Below the pieces are notes generated by a model. It was not told the origin of the DNA. It saw only the letters and a program-made list of their open reading frames with translations, and ran no database searches. The position numbers and the translations under genes were made by a program. From Escherichia coli (GTDB lineage Bacteria; Pseudomonadota; Gammaproteobacteria; Enterobacterales; Enterobacteriaceae), in the NCBI GenBank assembly GCA_025336685.1, contig GCA_025336685.1_4717.1: a stretch of DNA of 64,000 nucleotides; one strand, written 5' to 3'. Positions 20,054 through 42,937 of this stretch are shown here, one piece after another. Within the stretch, counting starts at the first letter, position 1. Each line of letters begins with the position of its first letter.

Positions 20054-20551
20054 TTACGCGTGTCGTCGTTTACCAAAGAAAATATGATTGTCTACCACGG
20101 TGATATTGGTAGCATGTTTTCTGAAATGTTTAGGGCGAAGATGTTTCGCGTTAAAGAATACGGCTCCTCGTGTTGGATCGGCTTTACGGTAAGCAACAAT
20201 GTCGTTATTGCGCAATGTTGCGACCTCTCGTGCTATCGCTCTTGCCCGCTCAAAAGCGGCACGATCGCGTATGACAATTCGTTGTTGTCTTGCCCAGGGG
20301 AATTGACCTCTTTGCAGTACGACGTCTCTGACGTTCGTAGGGAATCGGTAGTCCATAGATCGATTATGTATTAAAAACGCCACGGAGTATTGCCCTTTTA
20401 CAGATTCGCCTCTGGCTTCCATATACACAGCGCATGCGACGATCTCTTTCCGGCAATCGATTCTAGGTCCTGCGTTCACCGATGCTTGACTTAACGGTGC
20501 GATAAGCAACATAACAAGCCCTAAAACCAACGTGTGTAAAATACCTTGCAT
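20054..20551 (-). CDS. SleB-like cell-wall hydrolase with N-terminal signal/anchor (candidate endolysin)
   Basis: Hydrophobic N-terminus GILHTLVLGLVMLLIAPLSQA, then CAVYMEARGES...VAFLIHNR...VVLQRGQF resembling the SleB hydrolase family; start at Met18 with GAGG SD (ORF track extends to 20602). Confidence 0.6.
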   Translation of the reverse strand: MQGILHTLVLGLVMLLIAPLSQASVNAGPRIDCRKEIVACAVYMEARGESVKGQYSVAFLIHNRSMDYRFPTNVRDVVLQRGQFPWARQQRIVIRDRAAFERARAIAREVATLRNNDIVAYRKADPTRGAVFFNAKHLRPKHFRKHATNITVVDNHIFFGKRRHA

Positions 20552-20805
20552 CTTAATTAACCTCACGATAAGGTGCTGTCCACTGGCGTCTTGATAACGC
20601 ATCCCGTCTATCGGGTTATTCTATTCAGCGGGCAGCAGGTTAGCGTCAGATGTTTGCCCGACATCCACGACAGAAATAAACGGTACTGAAAATACGGTCT
20701 CCTCTGGTTTGGCAATAAACATAACGTTGGATAACAGAACCCATTTCCCGCATCCAACGCGGTAAAGGTGTACATCGTTTGAATTCATATAGTTTCTCAA
20801 AGATG

Positions 20806-21108
20806 TTAACCTCTACCGTCGAGCCACAAGTTGTATTTCTCACGAGCGTCGGGATCGCGATAGATGCGACGATACCTTAATTCCGGTAATAATCCGGTTC
20901 GCACTAACTCATCCGTTAACTTTCTACGACGTTCTACGCCGTTATGGATACGACGTAACTCACGAAAGTTAAGCGGTGTTTGTTTCATTAGAACCCCCAT
21001 TACGATCGGGCGATGATCAATTTCATACAGCGATAATACCCCACGTATTTCATCTAATACCCGCTCGCGATCGATTAGTATTCGATCATGATATTTTAAT
21101 TGTTCCAT
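20806..21108 (-). CDS. hypothetical protein (100 aa)
   Basis: ORF in the lysis-like cassette; no motif. Confidence 0.35.
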   Translation of the reverse strand: MEQLKYHDRILIDRERVLDEIRGVLSLYEIDHRPIVMGVLMKQTPLNFRELRRIHNGVERRRKLTDELVRTGLLPELRYRRIYRDPDAREKYNLWLDGRG

Positions 21109-21134
21109 AACAGTCGCTCTCGTTTCAGGGGGAG

Positions 21135-21338
21135 TTAAGTATTGTGTTTATTCCTACCTACATTCCTCAACAGTGTAACGATAACGAATACCGCCACCAT
21201 CAAGAAGACGAACCATAACCCGACATTAATTCGGGCGGCTGGTACATCCACCATAAGGAGCATCGTCCCACAAAACCCAAGGACTATCCATACTAACATC
21301 ATCCCTATCAACCCCCGCAGCAACTTAAGCCAGATCAT
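21135..21338 (-). CDS. small membrane protein (67 aa), holin candidate
   Basis: Two hydrophobic helices (LIGMMLVWIVLGFCGTMLLMV and LWFVFLMVAVFVIVTLL); start preceded by TAAGGAGGAG. Confidence 0.4.
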   Translation of the reverse strand: MIWLKLLRGLIGMMLVWIVLGFCGTMLLMVDVPAARINVGLWFVFLMVAVFVIVTLLRNVGRNKHNT

Positions 21339-21511
21339 AAACTCCTCCTTACTTTCTCTGATAAAGCGACGATTCTAATTTTAGAAACATCCCTAATGCG
21401 AATGCGAGTAATGACGCACGTACCCACATACCTCCTTGAAAACTGTTGTACAACATAAAGACCAGAGCGATGCCGCCCATATGCAGGCGGCACTTATCGA
21501 ACAATGTTGGT

Positions 21512-21721
21512 TTATACATAGGAGATTAAACGTTGAATGATTTTTACTTTGCCTTTGCCTGGACCTTTCTTGCGACGATTCAATAGACGGATACGGTTTC
21601 CAATTACGGAATCGCCGTCATAATCAGCACGCAACTGTGGTGGGAGAGCAAGATGTTCGCGATTGACACCCGGGTTGTTATAAAAACGATTGAAACTTAA
21701 AAGATGGTTAGTTGGAATCAT
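21512..21721 (-). CDS. small basic protein with RRKKGPGKGK motif
   Basis: Shares the motif (I/L)xxRxx(K/R)KKGPxKGK with three small ORFs at 39.9-40.4 kb; ORF-track start is TTG, first ATG at 21719-21721. Confidence 0.4.
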   Translation of the reverse strand: MIPTNHLLSFNRFYNNPGVNREHLALPPQLRADYDGDSVIGNRIRLLNRRKKGPGKGKVKIIQRLISYV

Positions 21722-21739
21722 TGTATTGACCTTATTCAA

Positions 21740-22090
21740 TTATTTACCAAGATAGAGGTATTCGCCACCCTGAATAACACCGGTTGATGGGTCAACCAGT
21801 ATGCGAACCCGCGCGTAGGTCTTGAAAGAGGGATTGAAAACTTCGAAGTCAGCCACTTTCAATTTCACGCTGGGGTTGGTAGGGTTTTTAACTCCTGGAA
21901 GTTCTTTCGGTAATCCGAAGTCGACTCCATATTCTTCAAGGTCTGCTGGTGTCATGCTCTCCATGGCCATGTAGATTGCTTTTGCTTTATCGTAAACCTC
22001 TGGGCTATCCAGCAACCCAGCCTGCGCTGAACCGACAACACTACCGAACAGAATAGCAACAGCAACAAACAATTTAGTTAACGTTTTCAT
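21740..22090 (-). CDS. secreted/periplasmic protein (116 aa)
   Basis: N-terminal signal peptide MKTLTKLFVAVAILFGSVVGSAQA. Confidence 0.5.
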   Translation of the reverse strand: MKTLTKLFVAVAILFGSVVGSAQAGLLDSPEVYDKAKAIYMAMESMTPADLEEYGVDFGLPKELPGVKNPTNPSVKLKVADFEVFNPSFKTYARVRILVDPSTGVIQGGEYLYLGK

Positions 22091-22126
22091 GATATTTTCC
22101 TCGAAAGTAAAATGTTACAATACCTA

Positions 22127-22549
22127 TTAACGTACGGCTGCTACGCTGTTAGCGCATGCCTGAATATCATCGGTATTTACGATGATGGTTTCGTTAAACG
22201 CACGAATGCGTGCGCGACGGGCTTCTTTAAGGCTGGCGATTGCGTTAGCAGCTTGATCTGTATTCGCAAGGCTAATAACCGGGATCAAACGCATGTCAGG
22301 ACTGCAGATATTCAATGCTTGGTATACACGGCCGTTGATTCCTACGGTATCAGACATCGGATAGTGCGCACGGCATTGAAATTGACCCATGACAACAAGC
22401 GAACGATCGGAGATACCAATCTGATAACGACCGTCTTCGCTGTAGGTGTAACAGTTATTCCCACGAGCCATCCAGTTAGCTTGTGCTTGTGCACTAACAA
22501 AAGCCAGGGTAGCGACGATAGCGAATGCGATATTTTTGAACAGTTTCAT
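22127..22549 (-). CDS. secreted/periplasmic protein (about 141 aa)
   Basis: Signal peptide MKLFKNIAFAIVATLAFVSAQAQA from the internal ATG at 22547-22549. Confidence 0.5.
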   Translation of the reverse strand: MKLFKNIAFAIVATLAFVSAQAQANWMARGNNCYTYSEDGRYQIGISDRSLVVMGQFQCRAHYPMSDTVGINGRVYQALNICSPDMRLIPVISLANTDQAANAIASLKEARRARIRAFNETIIVNTDDIQACANSVAAVR

Positions 22550-22585
22550 GATAAAGATCCTTATTGAAATAAAATCGGTATAAAG

Positions 22586-22601
22586 CCCCCCATTTAGGGG
22601 G
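22586..22601 (-). terminator. short terminator hairpin
   Basis: CCCCC-ATTTA-GGGGG followed on the minus strand by a U-rich run. Confidence 0.4.
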
Positions 22602-22607
22602 ACCTGA

Positions 22608-22925
22608 TTAGTTTGCACTTAAGAAATGACCCAGAACCGTTACGATTGGAAACAGTCCCGTAACCGTATTATCGCCAGAAAACATCATCTTTGAGTCGTT
22701 AACGGTGATGAAACGGATGTCGGTTGCAGACCCATCGATAGCGACAAAACGCATCGAGTTCGGTGGAAGATCCTCAACAACTTCCACGAGGTGTTCACGA
22801 TTTTCAAAGGCTTCTTTAACACGACGCATGAAACGAATCAATGTTCCTTCAGCGTCGGCTTCCAAATGACCTAAGATATCGCGATTATTACGAATAGCGA
22901 ATACAGCCATTTTAAACATACACAT
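22608..22925 (-). CDS. hypothetical protein (105 aa)
   Basis: ORF with AAGAGGA SD; conserved 17-mer and a 12-bp hairpin lie upstream. Confidence 0.45.
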   Translation of the reverse strand: MCMFKMAVFAIRNNRDILGHLEADAEGTLIRFMRRVKEAFENREHLVEVVEDLPPNSMRFVAIDGSATDIRFITVNDSKMMFSGDNTVTGLFPIVTVLGHFLSAN

Positions 22926-39538: not shown

Positions 39539-39885
39539 TCCACATTCTCCGTTATATGCTTTAAACTGTTACGTATACTTCTCAATCGATGGTTAAATCC
39601 GGAACGATAACATTTCCGTTCAAACCGTGCCGCTCGCGATTTATTCGCCTGATGAAGCTGTTCGTTCACCTGCGACGCTATACGTAAACGCCGCAATAAA
39701 GACCTCAGCCGAACGACAACCAACGGCTGTTCTTTTACCTTCTCTAGTTTGAGTAAATCGTCAATACGAAACTTTATTTCGATAATCTGATTCCTGTTTT
39801 TGCGGTACTGATGAATATACCAACATCGACGAAAATAGGCGATGCTAAACATAGGGTAGGTCCTTTTCAACGCCACCTCCAACAA
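39535..39885 (-). CDS. hypothetical protein (116 aa), AT-rich block
   Basis: ORF, basic, no motif. Confidence 0.4.
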   Translation of the reverse strand: MLEVALKRTYPMFSIAYFRRCWYIHQYRKNRNQIIEIKFRIDDLLKLEKVKEQPLVVVRLRSLLRRLRIASQVNEQLHQANKSRAARFERKCYRSGFNHRLRSIRNSLKHITENVE

Positions 39886-40070
39886 TAAAACGGATTAGGT
39901 GCTTTATGGTATTTATAAATACCCACTTTCTTCCGTCTGCCTTTACCCGGTCCTCGTTTAATACGTTTGTTATAAACACGACCCAAATATCGAGTGACGA
40001 TAGATCGGGATAAATACATCGGATCGATATAATCCAGAGTACCCGCTTCTGTTTCTTCGAGACATTGCAT
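39867..40070 (-). CDS. small basic protein with KRGPGKGRRKK motif
   Basis: Paralog of the 21512..21721 product (DYxD...RxxxxKRGPGKGRR). Confidence 0.4.
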   Translation of the reverse strand: MQCLEETEAGTLDYIDPMYLSRSIVTRYLGRVYNKRIKRGPGKGRRKKVGIYKYHKAPNPFYCWRWR

Positions 40071-40096
40071 ACGTAACTCCTCTTTCCTCTAAGAAG

Positions 40097-40300
40097 TCAA
40101 TCCAGCATAAGCCATGGCATCGCTTTCGCGATAGAATCCACCGCAGCATTTGCTATCCTTCGTTCAGTCGTTGGTACCACATGCGCCACGAACCGTTTCC
40201 CTTTATTGCAACCTTTCTTGTGTTTTCCTTTGACCAAACGAACACCAATCATGTCGTTGATAACATGATTTAGTATGTGGCGCTGTAGAGAATTAATCAT
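40097..40300 (-). CDS. small basic protein with HKKGCNKGKR motif
   Basis: Same family; first ATG at 40298-40300 (ORF track starts at GTG 40303). Confidence 0.4.
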   Translation of the reverse strand: MINSLQRHILNHVINDMIGVRLVKGKHKKGCNKGKRFVAHVVPTTERRIANAAVDSIAKAMPWLMLD

Positions 40301-40439
40301 CACTTTTACTCCAGGCAGAGAAGATTCTTGGTTTTAGTTCTATCTGTCCGCATATCCAGGTGTATCTCCATTTACCTTTACGAGGACCTTTCTTATTTTT
40401 AACACCTATCAGAATACGATAAGGGTATGACCAAGCCAT
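40293..40439 (-). CDS. small basic protein (48 aa) with NKKGPRKGKW motif, below the ORF-track cut-off
   Basis: ATG 40437-40439 preceded by AGGAG with 6-nt spacing; stop overlaps the next gene start; same KKGPxKGK motif. Confidence 0.4.
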   Translation of the reverse strand: MAWSYPYRILIGVKNKKGPRKGKWRYTWICGQIELKPRIFSAWSKSDD

Positions 40440-40469
40440 TCTAAACTCCTAAAATAAATCTCGATATTC

Positions 40470-40810: not shown

Positions 40811-41107
40811 TTATACCGCCACCTTAGCCTTGATAGCAGGGTGTGATTGATAACCGACGAATACAAAGTCTTCGTAGCGGTAATCCGTAATACTTTCCGG
40901 TTTACGTACGATTGTTAGCTTCGGTAATGGATACGGCTCACGACTAAGTTGCTCTTTAACCTGTTCGAAATGGTTGTGATAGATGTGGCAATCCCCACCC
41001 GTCCACACGAACTCACCAACGTCCATATTCAACTGCTGGGCAAGCATATGCGTTAGCAACGAATATGATGCGATGTTGAATGGAACACCTAAAAATACGT
41101 CAGCACT
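40811..41107 (-). CDS. thyA: thymidylate synthase, exon 2 (C-terminal 98 aa)
   Basis: Begins [15 protein letters not shown] and ends PAIKAKVAV, matching the ThyA C-terminus; joins in frame to exon 1 (...LSCQLYQR|SADVFLG). Confidence 0.85.
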
Positions 41108-42214
41108 CATTCTGTTCAGATAAGGTCGTTAATCTTATCCCGTTAAAATAACAGCTGTAGATTATCTCTACAGTTCGGACTATATCACGATCTCCTTCCC
41201 TGGAGACCCCTCCCGTTTCACACCCACTTGGGCGTTACGCTACTCATCACTATTTTTATTCATCCGTTTAGTGCTTTCGCTAGTCTCTGGGCATTCTTCT
41301 ACAAGTCTGTACGATTCAAATTTGGGATTTTTACTACCTAATCGATAAAGTATCGTTGCCGGAACAACACCTAACTGCCGAGCCGCCTCAGTTAAAGAGA
41401 CATACTGAATTCCGTCGATTTCCACTTTACGTGCTGTAGTGGGAATCTTCCCCTTATTCACTTCGGCAAGACGACGTCGCGTCTCTTCTGTATGGTGTCG
41501 CCCATAGAACGAATTCTTTTCCCCGGTTCGGGTTTTTGCAAACTCTGATATCTTTCGACGAGTTTCTTCGCCAACCTTTACACCTAGGCGTCTAGCCCTA
41601 GACGCCGCGATGTTTTCGGGAGTGCATACTTTTCGCCGAATGAGTTCACGTGTTTCCGGTGTATGTGTTCGACCATACATCCCGTTACGTTCGCCCGGAT
41701 TGCCATGAACAGCGCGCCTTTGTTCAGGCGACATCGAAGCGAATCGATCGTTAACGACTTTAGTTATTTTCTCGATTATGTCATCGCGACGTGGGTTTCT
41801 CGATAAATTATCACCGCCTAAAGCACCTTTCCCGATATTGAGAGATGCTTCTTCCGGGATGCTATCGATATACACCTGCTCTAAAGCGTATGCCTCTTCT
41901 CGGGTACTACATTCATCGATATCCACGGTGATAAATCCACCACGGTTATGGATATCTTGTAATTTAGCGTTGTGGTGAGAACCATTACGCAAAGCCGATC
42001 TGTGCGTAGCTAACCGCTGATTAATGTTCCCGGTGCTACCAACATAGACATCGCCGTCTTGAGTACATAACCGATATACTACTGGTTTTTTCATACTGCC
42101 TCCTTTAAAAGAGAGACAGACTTGTAGAAGGTTAGCAACGGATTAGCCCGTAGGCTTTCCCGTTTTAAGGAGGTTATTCGACGTAGCTCACGCTACGAAG
42201 GCGCAGTTGCGTTT
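41108..42214 (-). mobile_element. group I self-splicing intron (1107 nt) interrupting thyA, carrying a homing endonuclease gene
   Basis: Exon 1 ends in U (CAGCGU), intron ends in G (AAUG) before exon 2; P7 strands CCAGAGACUAG (plus 41279-41289) and GAUAUAGUCC (41177-41186); P9 hairpin CUGUAGA-GAUAA-UCUACAG (41155-41173); P8-like hairpin GGUCUCC...GGAGAUC. Confidence 0.8.
41240..42094 (-). CDS. intron-encoded GIY-YIG homing endonuclease, I-TevI-like
   Basis: N-terminal VYRL...DVYVGST GIY-YIG module with conserved Arg/Glu; repeated NGMYGRTHTPETR / NSFYGRHHTEETR NUMOD3-like motifs; C-terminal HTH; AAAGGAGG SD inside the intron. Confidence 0.8.
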   Translation of the reverse strand: MKKPVVYRLCTQDGDVYVGSTGNINQRLATHRSALRNGSHHNAKLQDIHNRGGFITVDIDECSTREEAYALEQVYIDSIPEEASLNIGKGALGGDNLSRNPRRDDIIEKITKVVNDRFASMSPEQRRAVHGNPGERNGMYGRTHTPETRELIRRKVCTPENIAASRARRLGVKVGEETRRKISEFAKTRTGEKNSFYGRHHTEETRRRLAEVNKGKIPTTARKVEIDGIQYVSLTEAARQLGVVPATILYRLGSKNPKFESYRLVEECPETSESTKRMNKNSDE

Positions 42215-42937
42215 ACGCTGGTAAAGCTGACAGGATAAAGCACGTGTTGGTACGTTATGCGCATTCAACCAAAGTTCTGTTTCACTGCGTCGTACATCAT
42301 CCGTAACCCACTGGGTTCTTAATACGTCGTTGCGCTGGACATAATCAACGCGTTCATCGAGTGTGAGTTCGTGGGTATAGAACTGATAGAATGAATGGCA
42401 CGGAGCGAGATGCATATCGTCTAAATCACCTACGTTCCATGCGCTAACGATGATCCGTCGAGAATCAGGATCTTCTTTAAGCTGACGCATCACGTTTGCA
42501 ATCTGATCGTGATGTCTAACATACACGAGGTGTTTTAGCATACCGTCATTAAGAATGCCGAAATATTCATAGCCGCGTTGCATCAACTCACGAGTACGTT
42601 CTGTATCGTGCGGAACAACCACTTTATAGTCGATCCATTCCCGCCATTGTTTGCCGTAAATCGGTCCTAGATTCCCTTCTTCGTCAGCCCATTCATTCCA
42701 GATACGAACACCGTTATCTTGAAGATAAGCAACGTTTGTGTCGCCGTTAAGAAACCAGAGCAGTTCGTGGATAACGCTCTTAAGGTGAATCTTCTTGGTG
42801 GTTACCAGCGGAAATCCTTTCTTCAAGTCAAAACGCATCTGACGTCCGAATACGGAACGGGTCCCGGTCCCCGTGCGGTCGGCTTTATCGCGACCGTTAT
42901 CCATGATGTCTTGCAAAAGGTCCAAATACTGTTTCAT
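42215..42937 (-). CDS. thyA: thymidylate synthase, exon 1 (N-terminal 241 aa)
   Basis: [12 protein letters not shown]...DRTGTGT...[12 protein letters not shown]...[23 protein letters not shown]...LSCQLYQR: ThyA motifs including the catalytic Cys loop; the ORF-track frame runs on into the intron. Confidence 0.85.

What the first reader, a model, noticed from the sequence alone, without database searches (positions are those of the whole stretch)
39867..40439. Three tandem KKGPxKGK small basic genes, one below standard ORF-calling size
Products of 67, 68 and 48 aa carry KRGPGKGRRKK, HKKGCNKGKR and NKKGPRKGKW respectively. The 48-aa gene is missing from the ORF track (under 60 aa) but has an excellent SD (AGGAG, 6-nt spacing) and its stop overlaps the next start. 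The three are likely co-translated as an operon.
Basis: seen in the sequence. Interest (0 to 1): 0.5.

Follow-up and report, generated by a model that had tools for sequence, protein, structure and literature searches.

The report
Small basic early genes, Goslar-like phage
Three tiny, very basic genes downstream of thymidylate synthase in a Goslar-like jumbo phage are real and conserved, share a Lys/Gly/Pro-rich loop with a fourth gene 19 kb away, are found only in this phage lineage, and have no demonstrated function.

Summary
Three minus-strand ORFs (P1 39867-40070, 67 aa; P2 40097-40303, 68 aa; P3 40293-40439, 48 aa) each carry [KR][KR]G[PC]x[KR]G[KR]. A fourth carrier (P4, 21512-21721) lies 19 kb away. 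The motif occurs 4 times against about 0.005 expected.

The window is a ~93% relative of the nucleus-forming jumbo phage Goslar, which already annotates all four as hypothetical proteins. Across 10 genomes:
- P3 is intact in 10/10 (pN/pS 0.19).
- P2 keeps its N-terminal half and motif in 10/10 but loses its C-terminus twice (pN/pS 0.33).
- P1 is degraded or absent in 3 and compromised in a fourth (pN/pS 0.51).

Published Goslar RNA-seq places all four in the nucleus-independent (early) transcript class. Virion mass spectrometry does not detect them. Pfam, PHROGs, a PDB sequence search, an exhaustive HMMER scan of 1.84 billion proteins (P2) and fold searches (P3) find no relatives outside Goslar-like phages.

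AlphaFold predicts P3 as a long beta-hairpin with the motif at its tip. My best reading is early, non-virion accessory proteins that bind nucleic acid through this basic loop. That function is inferred, not shown. This is an ordinary but genuine lineage-specific mini-protein family of modest interest.

The parts
40293..40439 (-). P3, 48-aa basic protein (Goslar gp139 ortholog). Predicted beta-hairpin with the motif at its tip.
   Evidence: ORF. Ortholog intact in 10/10 genomes, pN/pS 0.19. AlphaFold: strands 4-14 and 24-34, loop 15-23, pLDDT about 85 for residues 11-30.
40371..40394 (-). P3 motif KKGPRKGK
   Evidence: Invariant in all relatives apart from one final K-to-R change, with synonymous codon changes in L005 and L135.
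40446..40450 (-). Shine-Dalgarno AGGAG of P3, 6 nt before the ATG
   Evidence: Read directly from the sequence.
40097..40303 (-). P2, 67/68-aa basic protein (ortholog of the Goslar CDS between gp137 and gp139). ATG at 40300, GTG at 40303. Overlaps the P3 stop.
   Evidence: Orthologs at 66-97% identity. pN/pS 0.33. C-terminus lost in L135 and L136. Orphan in an exhaustive search.
40196..40219 (-). P2 motif KKGCNKGK (Cys replaced by Tyr or Val in some relatives)
39867..40070 (-). P1, 67-aa basic protein (Goslar gp137 ortholog). Fastest evolving and dispensable.
   Evidence: pN/pS 0.51. Remnant in L004, absent in L006 and L136. Aligns with P4 over 36 columns, hhalign 87%.
39936..39959 (-). P1 motif KRGPGKGR
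   Evidence: Variants KRGPAKGK, KRGPGKRK, GPGKDK and GPGKSR in relatives.
40077..40082 (-). Shine-Dalgarno GAGGAG of P1, 6 nt before the ATG
   Evidence: Read directly from the sequence.
21512..21721 (-). P4, the fourth family member (Goslar gp102 ortholog): 69 aa from the ATG at 21721, with conserved ADYDGD followed by IRLLNRRKKGPGKGKVKIIQRLISYV.
   Evidence: It is the only other motif carrier in the whole 237-kb Goslar genome.

Best explanation
SHOWN: these are genuine protein-coding genes of a Goslar-like, nucleus-forming jumbo phage. They belong to a lineage-restricted set of four mini-proteins of 48-69 aa with pI above 10, each carrying one copy of a conserved Lys/Arg-Gly-Pro-x-Lys-Gly-Lys loop. 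The three tandem genes lie in a long leftward transcription unit downstream of thymidylate synthase. In Goslar, all four orthologs are transcribed in the nucleus-independent, early (EPI-vesicle) class and are not detected in virions. P3 and P2 overlap stop-to-start. P3 is the constrained core member. P1 and the C-terminal half of P2 are dispensable.

INFERRED: the motif forms the exposed, flexible, positively charged tip of a hairpin or loop. This is predicted with moderate confidence only for P3, as a long two-stranded beta-ribbon with one aromatic and hydrophobic face. I propose that the proteins act as early accessory factors that bind nucleic acid (host or phage DNA, or RNA) through this loop, in the manner of minor-groove or backbone-binding basic turns and beta-arms. 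The hydrophobic face would be buried by self-association or by pairing with the co-translated neighbour (P3 with P2). The nucleic-acid target and the biological role are not established.
For: Coding and selection: intact orthologs, pN/pS 0.19-0.51, and synonymous-only changes within the motif codons.

Motif: 4 observed against 0.005 expected, and exactly four carriers in the whole Goslar genome. The motif is the most conserved block in P3, P2 and P4.

Family links: P1-P4 hhalign 87% over 36 columns, and P3-P4 72% over 20 columns. Each profile's best non-self hits among 5,329 ORFs are the other members.

Structure: the P3 AlphaFold model is a beta-hairpin with the motif as the tip loop, pLDDT about 85 in its centre. 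The non-significant Foldseek hits are dominated by small DNA- or RNA-binding hairpin modules.

Charge: net +8 to +11, pI 10.1-11.0.

Expression: Goslar RNA-seq shows read densities like the neighbours, with log2 fold change about 0 to +1.3 under ChmA knockdown, against -4 to -7 for structural genes (10.1101/2023.09.20.558163, Supplementary Table 2).

Not in virions: absent from the Goslar virion LC-MS/MS table (10.64898/2026.04.21.720040, Table S4).

Operon layout: Shine-Dalgarno sites, stop-start overlap and no internal terminators.
Against: No homology to any nucleic-acid-binding family was found in Pfam, PHROGs or PDB sequences. Fold searches are non-significant or empty.

The hairpin is predicted only for P3, using an alignment that mixes the paralogs. 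P2 modelled poorly (pLDDT 56), with the motif region disordered between two helices. Hydrophobic periodicity of the flanks differs between members, so the structural context may not be shared.

High positive charge is equally compatible with binding acidic proteins or membranes. Translation has not been shown directly; the virion MS absence is uninformative about expression, and Lys/Arg-rich mini-proteins give poor tryptic peptides. P2's link to the others is the 8-residue motif alone.
Confidence: 0.4

Rival explanations
1. The loop is a short linear motif for a protein target. The mini-proteins would be early host-takeover inhibitors, or adaptors that dock on an acidic surface of a host protein or of phage machinery such as the nuclear shell or import apparatus, as many small early phage proteins do.
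For: They are in the early, nucleus-independent transcript class and are not in virions. The motif is kept while the flanks diverge or are deleted, as expected for a portable binding motif. The structural context appears to differ between members. The family is lineage-restricted and deletion-prone, as is typical of accessory host-interaction genes.
Against: No partner is known and no similarity to any characterised inhibitor was found. A very high net positive charge with aromatic residues beside the loop is more typical of nucleic-acid binders. Nothing here separates this reading from the main explanation.
Confidence: 0.25
2. They are membrane-active cationic mini-proteins, for example lysis accessories of the cationic-peptide type that permeabilise the envelope.
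For: P4 lies about 900 bp from an endolysin gene (20054-20602, phrog_938) and next to a 67-aa ORF with strongly hydrophobic, transmembrane-like segments (21135-21338). The P3 model is an amphipathic, Trp/Tyr/Arg-rich hairpin. P1 ends in FYCWRWR.
Against: All four are transcribed in the early class, not with late or lysis genes. The triplet sits among nucleotide-metabolism and replication genes, not lysis genes. None of the four has a hydrophobic segment or signal peptide (read from the sequences).
Confidence: 0.07
3. They are decaying remnants of larger genes, such as homing-endonuclease fragments next to the mobile-element-ridden td gene, and are not functional in their own right.
For: The region is deletion-prone: P1 is lost or degraded in three relatives and P2 truncated in two. 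td next door carries an intron-like insert with a GIY-YIG gene here and an intein in L009. One HNH_3 endonuclease in IMG/VR has KKGPRKGK in a similar strand-loop-strand setting that resembles P4 and P2.
Against: Purifying selection, intact Shine-Dalgarno sites and start codons, and dozens of intact variants. P3 is intact in 10/10 genomes. Maximum-sensitivity HMM searches against all Goslar and window ORFs hit no endonuclease or other large gene. No catalytic His-Me residues are present.
Confidence: 0.05
4. The conserved element is a DNA or RNA signal that happens to be translated, not a protein motif.
For: All copies are purine-rich (AAGAAAGGT...AAAGG.AAA).
Against: Paralogs and orthologs differ by synonymous codons at Gly, Pro, Lys and Arg positions while the amino acids are kept. 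Rfam finds nothing, either at gathering thresholds or at E<=1.
Confidence: 0.02

Closest known systems
Basic minor-groove or backbone-binding turn motifs (AT-hook GRP core; SPKK/SPRK turns of histones). Recalled from general knowledge.
   Same: A short Lys/Arg-rich segment punctuated by Gly and Pro, in small, highly basic proteins. This is a plausible way for a flexible loop to contact DNA.
   Different: There is no G-R-P core and no S/T-P-K-K. Pfam gives no AT_hook hit. The motif occurs once per protein and, in P3, at the tip of a structured hairpin and not in a disordered tail. No binding data exist.
Beta-ribbon arms of HU/IHF-type nucleoid proteins. Recalled from general knowledge.
   Same: The P3 model is a long two-stranded beta-ribbon with a basic, Pro-containing tip.
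   Different: There is no helical dimerisation body, the protein is half the length, there is no Bac_DNA_binding Pfam hit, and there is no fold match.
Small early host-takeover proteins of lytic phages (for example the 50-70 aa T7 and T4 early proteins). General knowledge.
   Same: Size, early expression class, non-virion, lineage-restricted, dispensable in part, and clustered among other small orphan genes.
   Different: No sequence or structural similarity to any characterised example, and no known target.
phrog_32989, a family of 54-82 aa proteins of uncultured (mostly aquatic) viruses ending in ...GATGTQRYRIKKGPNKGKIL
   Same: Small size, and the same KKGPxKGK block preceded by Y-R-I, as in P3.
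   Different: The motif is at the extreme C-terminus after a helical-looking N-terminal part. hhalign aligns only the 10-12 motif columns. P1-P3 do not hit this PHROG. Its function is also unknown.
HNH_3 / His-Me finger endonuclease from IMG/VR (L043, L089, L091) with ...GYGKMNMRFKKGPRKGKVKSALAHRVAL...
   Same: An identical loop sequence between two strand-like segments. The downstream KGKVK...(H/Q)R(V/L) resembles P4 and P2.
   Different: The Goslar proteins lack the whole catalytic HNH and zinc-binding part. There is no HMM similarity to Goslar's own HNH genes and no Pfam hit.

Membership tests
Goslarvirus KKGPxKGK mini-protein group (defined here: gp102, gp137, gp139 and the CDS between gp137 and gp139) | 45-75 aa, pI above 10, with a single [KR][KR]G[PCYV]x[KR]G[KR] block flanked by hydrophobic segments | tested here: met
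   All three finding ORFs and P4 meet it. There are exactly four such ORFs in the Goslar genome.
Goslarvirus KKGPxKGK mini-protein group | Similarity beyond the motif itself (common descent) | tested here: inconclusive
   P1-P4 87% over 36 columns. P3-P4 72% over 20 columns. P3-P1 11%, P3-P2 9%, P2-P4 4%, P2-P1 0.3%. A motif-only match to an unrelated family already gives 50-80%. So only P1-P4 is reasonably supported, and P2 is not.
AT-hook (Pfam PF02178) | G-R-P core flanked by Arg/Lys | tested here: not met
   No GRP tripeptide in any of the four. No Pfam hit at E<=10.
HU/IHF (Bac_DNA_binding) | A domain of about 90 aa with a helical dimer body and beta-arms | tested here: not met
   No Pfam hit. 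The proteins are 48-69 aa. No fold match.
KOW / ribosomal L24-like | Match to the KOW motif profile | tested here: not met
   No Pfam hit at E<=10 for P1-P3 or at E<=1 for P4.
HNH_3 / His-Me finger homing endonuclease | Catalytic His...Asn...His/Asn beta-beta-alpha-metal motif and Cys/His zinc ligands | tested here: not met
   These are absent from the sequences. No Pfam hit. hmmsearch --max against all Goslar and window ORFs hits no HNH gene.
Glutamyl-tRNA synthetase N-terminal segment (tRNA-synt_1c) | HIGH motif and a significant match to the catalytic-domain profile | tested here: not met
   The P2 profile hits only 2 GluRS chains, at E=0.17 and 1.1. There is no Pfam tRNA-synt_1c hit, and the His of HIGH is absent. 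I treat this as chance.
Methyl-CpG-binding domain (MBD) | Significant fold or sequence match to the MBD wedge | tested here: not met
phrog_32989 | Match to the PHROG profile | tested here: not met
   P1-P3 have no PHROG hits at E<=10, and P4 does not hit it. hhalign is motif-only.
Virion or inner-body proteins of chimalliviruses | Detected in purified virions | tested here: not met
   The accessions of all four Goslar orthologs are absent from Table S4 of 10.64898/2026.04.21.720040, while the adjacent td is present. Caveat: these proteins give poor tryptic peptides.

The most novel reading that the evidence does not exclude
The KKGPxKGK loop could be a portable, lineage-specific signal or DNA-binding tip. 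It would let early mini-proteins act at the phage's compartmentalised genome, either as tiny histone-like DNA binders inside the EPI vesicle or phage nucleus, or as a nuclear-localisation-like tag recognised by the shell or import machinery. This would be a previously unrecognised class of compartment-associated mini-proteins in nucleus-forming phages.
Probability: 0.07. Interest if true: 0.75.

Novelty: new member of a known kind. Interest (0 to 1): 0.3.

Why it matters
If the basic loop really mediates nucleic-acid or compartment binding, these would be the smallest such factors described for nucleus-forming jumbo phages. They would also be easy to study, since P3 is short enough to synthesise chemically. 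They are early-class, non-virion and partly dispensable, which fits candidates for host takeover or for early genome handling before the phage nucleus forms, a stage that is still poorly understood. As the evidence stands, the result is mainly an annotation gain. It confirms that a 48-aa gene below common ORF cut-offs is real and is the most constrained of the set. It links four "hypothetical proteins" of Goslar by one motif. It also shows that the family is an orphan confined to Goslar-like phages.

Tried and rejected
1. Pfam and PHROG scans of P1-P4 gave only sub-threshold noise: ICMT, DUF7439 and phrog_33538.
2. tblastn against 50,697 GenBank phages found only Goslar. IMG/VR held only Goslar and a near-identical contig.
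3. Word-indexed searches of 5.8 billion proteins with P2, with P3 and with a motif-centred family profile returned only the four ortholog groups from contigs of about 235-250 kb.
4. An exhaustive HMMER search of 1.84 billion representatives with the P2 profile returned 3 hits, all P2 variants.
5. Profiles against PDB sequences gave only a GluRS look-alike for P2, at E=0.17. The colinear spacing of G-x-R and G-x-F-V was tempting, but Pfam's GluRS model does not match, so I rejected it as chance. P4 and the core profile gave nothing.
7. A back-translated motif scan of IMG/VR showed the motif recurs in unrelated proteins (Mu-type portal, an HNH_3 endonuclease, phrog_32989). The similarity is motif-only and circular.
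8. The idea that these are fragments of Goslar's own HNH or other genes got no support.
9. Structured RNA or tRNA under the finding: none.
10. Hydrophobic-moment analysis to decide helix versus strand for the flanks was inconclusive.
11. Literature searches for these Goslar genes found no functional study. The tools replace the string for the gene number between gp137 and gp139 with 'xxxxx', so that name could not be searched cleanly. The only co-occurrence with Goslar was PhiPA3's unrelated gene of that number.

Full report
WHAT IS THERE

The window is about 93% identical at the DNA level to Escherichia phage vB_EcoM_Goslar (Goslarvirus), a nucleus-forming jumbo phage. The finding's three ORFs lie on the minus strand:
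- P1: 39867-40070, 67 aa.
- P2: 40097-40303, 68 aa from GTG. The ATG one codon in gives the 67-aa form seen in all relatives.
- P3: 40293-40439, 48 aa.

The quoted motif strings are correct. P3 has AGGAG 6 nt before its ATG, and its stop overlaps the P2 start. P1 has GAGGAG 6 nt upstream. All three are strongly basic, with pI 10.1-10.7. Goslar's RefSeq record already annotates all three, including the 48-aa one, as hypothetical proteins: gp137, the next CDS, and gp139.

IS THE MOTIF MORE THAN CHANCE?

[KR][KR]G[PC].[KR]G[KR] occurs four times in the six-frame translation, always in a small minus-strand ORF, against 0.005 expected in Markov-2 simulations. The fourth carrier, P4 (21512-21721, 69 aa from its ATG), is the Goslar gp102 ortholog. 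A scan of the complete 237-kb Goslar genome finds exactly these four and no others, even with relaxed patterns. The copies use different synonymous codons, so the repeat is at the protein level.

ARE THEY REAL GENES?

I assembled nine relatives: Goslar, seven metagenome or SRA contigs and one NCBI assembly contig. P2 identity runs from 97% down to 66% in full-length relatives, and the truncated L135 form (P0093) is more divergent still.

Nei-Gojobori pN/pS summed over all pairs is 0.19 for P3, 0.33 for P2 and 0.51 for P1, compared with 0.20-0.25 for the flanking genes. Several motif codon columns vary only synonymously.

Presence and absence across the ten genomes:
- P3 is intact in 10/10. It is 48 aa in eight, 51 aa in L135, and called with a 45-aa N-terminal extension in L005.
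- P2 keeps its N-terminal half and motif in 10/10. It has lost its C-terminal helix twice independently: a 79-nt deletion in L135 fuses it to out-of-frame P1 sequence, and a larger deletion in L136 removes everything down to the gp134 ortholog.
- P1 is intact in six. In L135 it keeps its own ATG and frame with a 12-nt in-frame deletion, but loses its upstream spacer and Shine-Dalgarno site. It is a deleted, frameshifted remnant in L004, and absent in L006 and L136.

So all three are coding. P3 is the constrained member, and the block is an accessory, deletion-prone region.

EXPRESSION CONTEXT

No terminator-like site lies on the minus strand between about 43,900 and 39,420. Sigma-70-like sites are not enriched, as expected for a phage with its own RNA polymerases.

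Published Goslar RNA-seq (10.1101/2023.09.20.558163, Supplementary Table 2) shows reads on all four orthologs at densities like their neighbours. Under ChmA knockdown, which blocks formation of the phage nucleus, their log2 fold change is about 0 to +1.3. Structural and late genes fall by 4-7 log2 units. The four genes therefore belong to the nucleus-independent, early (EPI-vesicle) class, as does td.

None of the four appears in the Goslar virion LC-MS/MS table (10.64898/2026.04.21.720040, Table S4), although td does. This is weak evidence, because Lys/Arg-rich mini-proteins give few usable tryptic peptides.

RELATIVES AND FAMILIES

Nothing was found outside Goslar-like phages:
- Pfam and PHROGs gave no hits.
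- GenBank phages contained only Goslar, and IMG/VR only Goslar and a near-identical contig.
- Searches of 5.8 billion proteins, including a motif-centred profile, returned 91 hits. All were 41-72-aa orthologs of the four genes, on contigs up to about 250 kb, with no names or domains.
- An exhaustive HMMER scan of 1.84 billion representatives with the P2 profile returned three proteins, all P2 variants.

Among themselves, P1 and P4 align over 36 columns (hhalign 87%), and P3 and P4 over 20 columns (72%). P2 matches the others only across the 8-residue motif, at 0.3-9%. A motif-only match to an unrelated family already scores 50-80%, so only the P1-P4 relationship is reasonably supported. In a maximum-sensitivity search of all 5,329 ORFs of Goslar plus the window, each profile's best non-self hits are the other members, and no large gene is hit.

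STRUCTURE

AlphaFold on P3, using a family alignment, gives a long beta-hairpin: strands 4-14 and 24-34, with NKKGPRKGK as the tip loop and pLDDT about 85 for residues 11-30. Read from the sequence, alternate residues put Tyr/Ile/Val and Trp/Tyr on one face. That implies self-association or a partner; this is my inference.

P2 modelled poorly, with pLDDT 56 and the motif region disordered between two helices. Hydrophobic periodicity of the flanks differs between members. A common hairpin is therefore not established.

THE MOTIF ELSEWHERE

A back-translated scan of IMG/VR shows KKGPxKGK recurs, flanked by strand-like sequence, in three unrelated settings:
- Mu-type portal proteins.
- One HNH_3 / His-Me endonuclease.
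- A large family of 54-82-aa proteins of uncultured viruses (phrog_32989, function unknown).

This suggests a generally favourable basic turn. It is not evidence of homology.

MOST LIKELY MECHANISM

What is shown: a real, early-class, non-virion, lineage-restricted set of mini-proteins whose most conserved feature is one basic Gly/Pro loop.

What is inferred: the loop is an exposed, flexible, cationic tip that contacts nucleic acid, and P3 needs a partner for its hydrophobic face, possibly the translationally coupled P2. I put this at about 0.4.

Rival explanations:
- A protein-targeting short linear motif, as in a host-takeover inhibitor or compartment adaptor (0.25).
- Membrane-active or lysis-accessory peptides (0.07). 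This is suggested only by P4's position near an endolysin and a transmembrane-like ORF, and it is contradicted by the early expression.
- Decaying gene remnants (0.05), contradicted by selection and.
- A nucleic-acid signal instead of a protein motif (0.02), contradicted by the synonymous variation and by Rfam.

NOVELTY AND VERDICT

The ORFs themselves are already annotated in Goslar. The searchable literature contains no functional study and no description of the shared motif. This is a new, small orphan family of a familiar general kind: small, basic, early accessory proteins of a lytic phage. Interest is modest, at 0.3. The most novel reading not excluded is that these are compartment-associated DNA-binding or targeting mini-proteins of a nucleus-forming phage. 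I give that about 7%.

Noticed in passing
window 40811-42937 (minus strand); insert about 41111-42187; ORF 41240-42094: The thymidylate synthase gene is split into a 249-aa N-terminal ORF (42188-42937) and a 99-aa C-terminal ORF (40811-41110). The ~1.08-kb insert carries a 284-aa GIY-YIG-type ORF, whose L005 ortholog hits Pfam GIY-YIG, NUMOD3 and, faintly, I-TevI_DNA-bd. Goslar, L004, L006, L007, L008, L135 and L136 have an intact 339-aa td. L005 has the same insert. L009 instead has td with an intein (Hint + LAGLIDADG). Rfam finds no group I intron here, even at E<=1.
   Followed up: partly
window 20054-22618 (minus strand): P4 lies in a cluster with an endolysin (20054-20602, phrog_938), a 67-aa ORF that is hydrophobic almost throughout and looks like a two-TM holin-type protein (21135-21338), and two ORFs with N-terminal signal-peptide-like segments (21740-22090, 22127-22618). 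This may be a lysis cassette. No PHROG hits apart from the endolysin.
   Followed up: partly
IMG/VR loci L019-L133 (e.g. L027 1527-, L036 2109-): There is a large family of 54-82-aa proteins of uncultured viruses ending in ...EVEIGATGTQRYRIKKGPNKGKIL (phrog_32989, unknown function), with the same KKGPxKGK block at the extreme C-terminus. The genomic context was not examined.
   Followed up: partly
window 40097-40300 (P2), residues 33-67: The P2 profile's best PDB hit is the conserved GGxFVLRIEDTD...AI..M.WLGLD segment of glutamyl-tRNA synthetase (5h4v_A, E=0.17). The spacing of an upstream G-x-R matches the HIGH-motif region. It is not significant and Pfam does not support it, so I judged it chance.
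   Followed up: partly
window 39970-40149 (minus strand, alternative frame across the P2/P1 junction); L135 4001-4240: A 59-aa alternative-frame ORF spanning the P2 end and the P1 start has no evidence of use in the window. Its sequence becomes the C-terminus of the P2 fusion protein created by a 79-nt deletion in L135.
   Followed up: yes
L004 1170-1454; L006 1061-1345: Two relatives carry an extra 94-aa gene between td and the gp140 ortholog. Its C-terminal part looks like a helix-turn-helix (GMSGKEVAMRYGVTPPCVTQIV). It is absent from the window and from Goslar, which is further evidence that this is a variable accessory region.
   Followed up: no
L005 2577-2858: In L005 the P3 ortholog is called as a 93-aa protein with a 45-aa N-terminal extension that has no counterpart in the other genomes. 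Whether translation starts at the upstream Met or the internal one is unknown.
   Followed up: no
Goslar record and literature tools: The tools replace the gene number between gp137 and gp139 with 'xxxxx' in locus tags, search terms and paper text, so that name cannot be searched directly. The only paper with both that token and Goslar refers to PhiPA3's unrelated gene of the same number.
   Followed up: yes
Goslar td (ortholog of window 40811-42937): Thymidylate synthase is detected in purified Goslar virions by LC-MS/MS, at an estimated 14-32 copies (Table S4 of 10.64898/2026.04.21.720040). That is unexpected for a nucleotide-metabolism enzyme.
   Followed up: no
protein database hits P0087, P0088, P0091: Some P4 orthologs are labelled as Salmonella, E. 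coli or Enterobacter proteins. This fits complete Goslar-like lytic phage genomes being present in bacterial isolate assemblies, as described in recent papers that mention Goslar.
   Followed up: no
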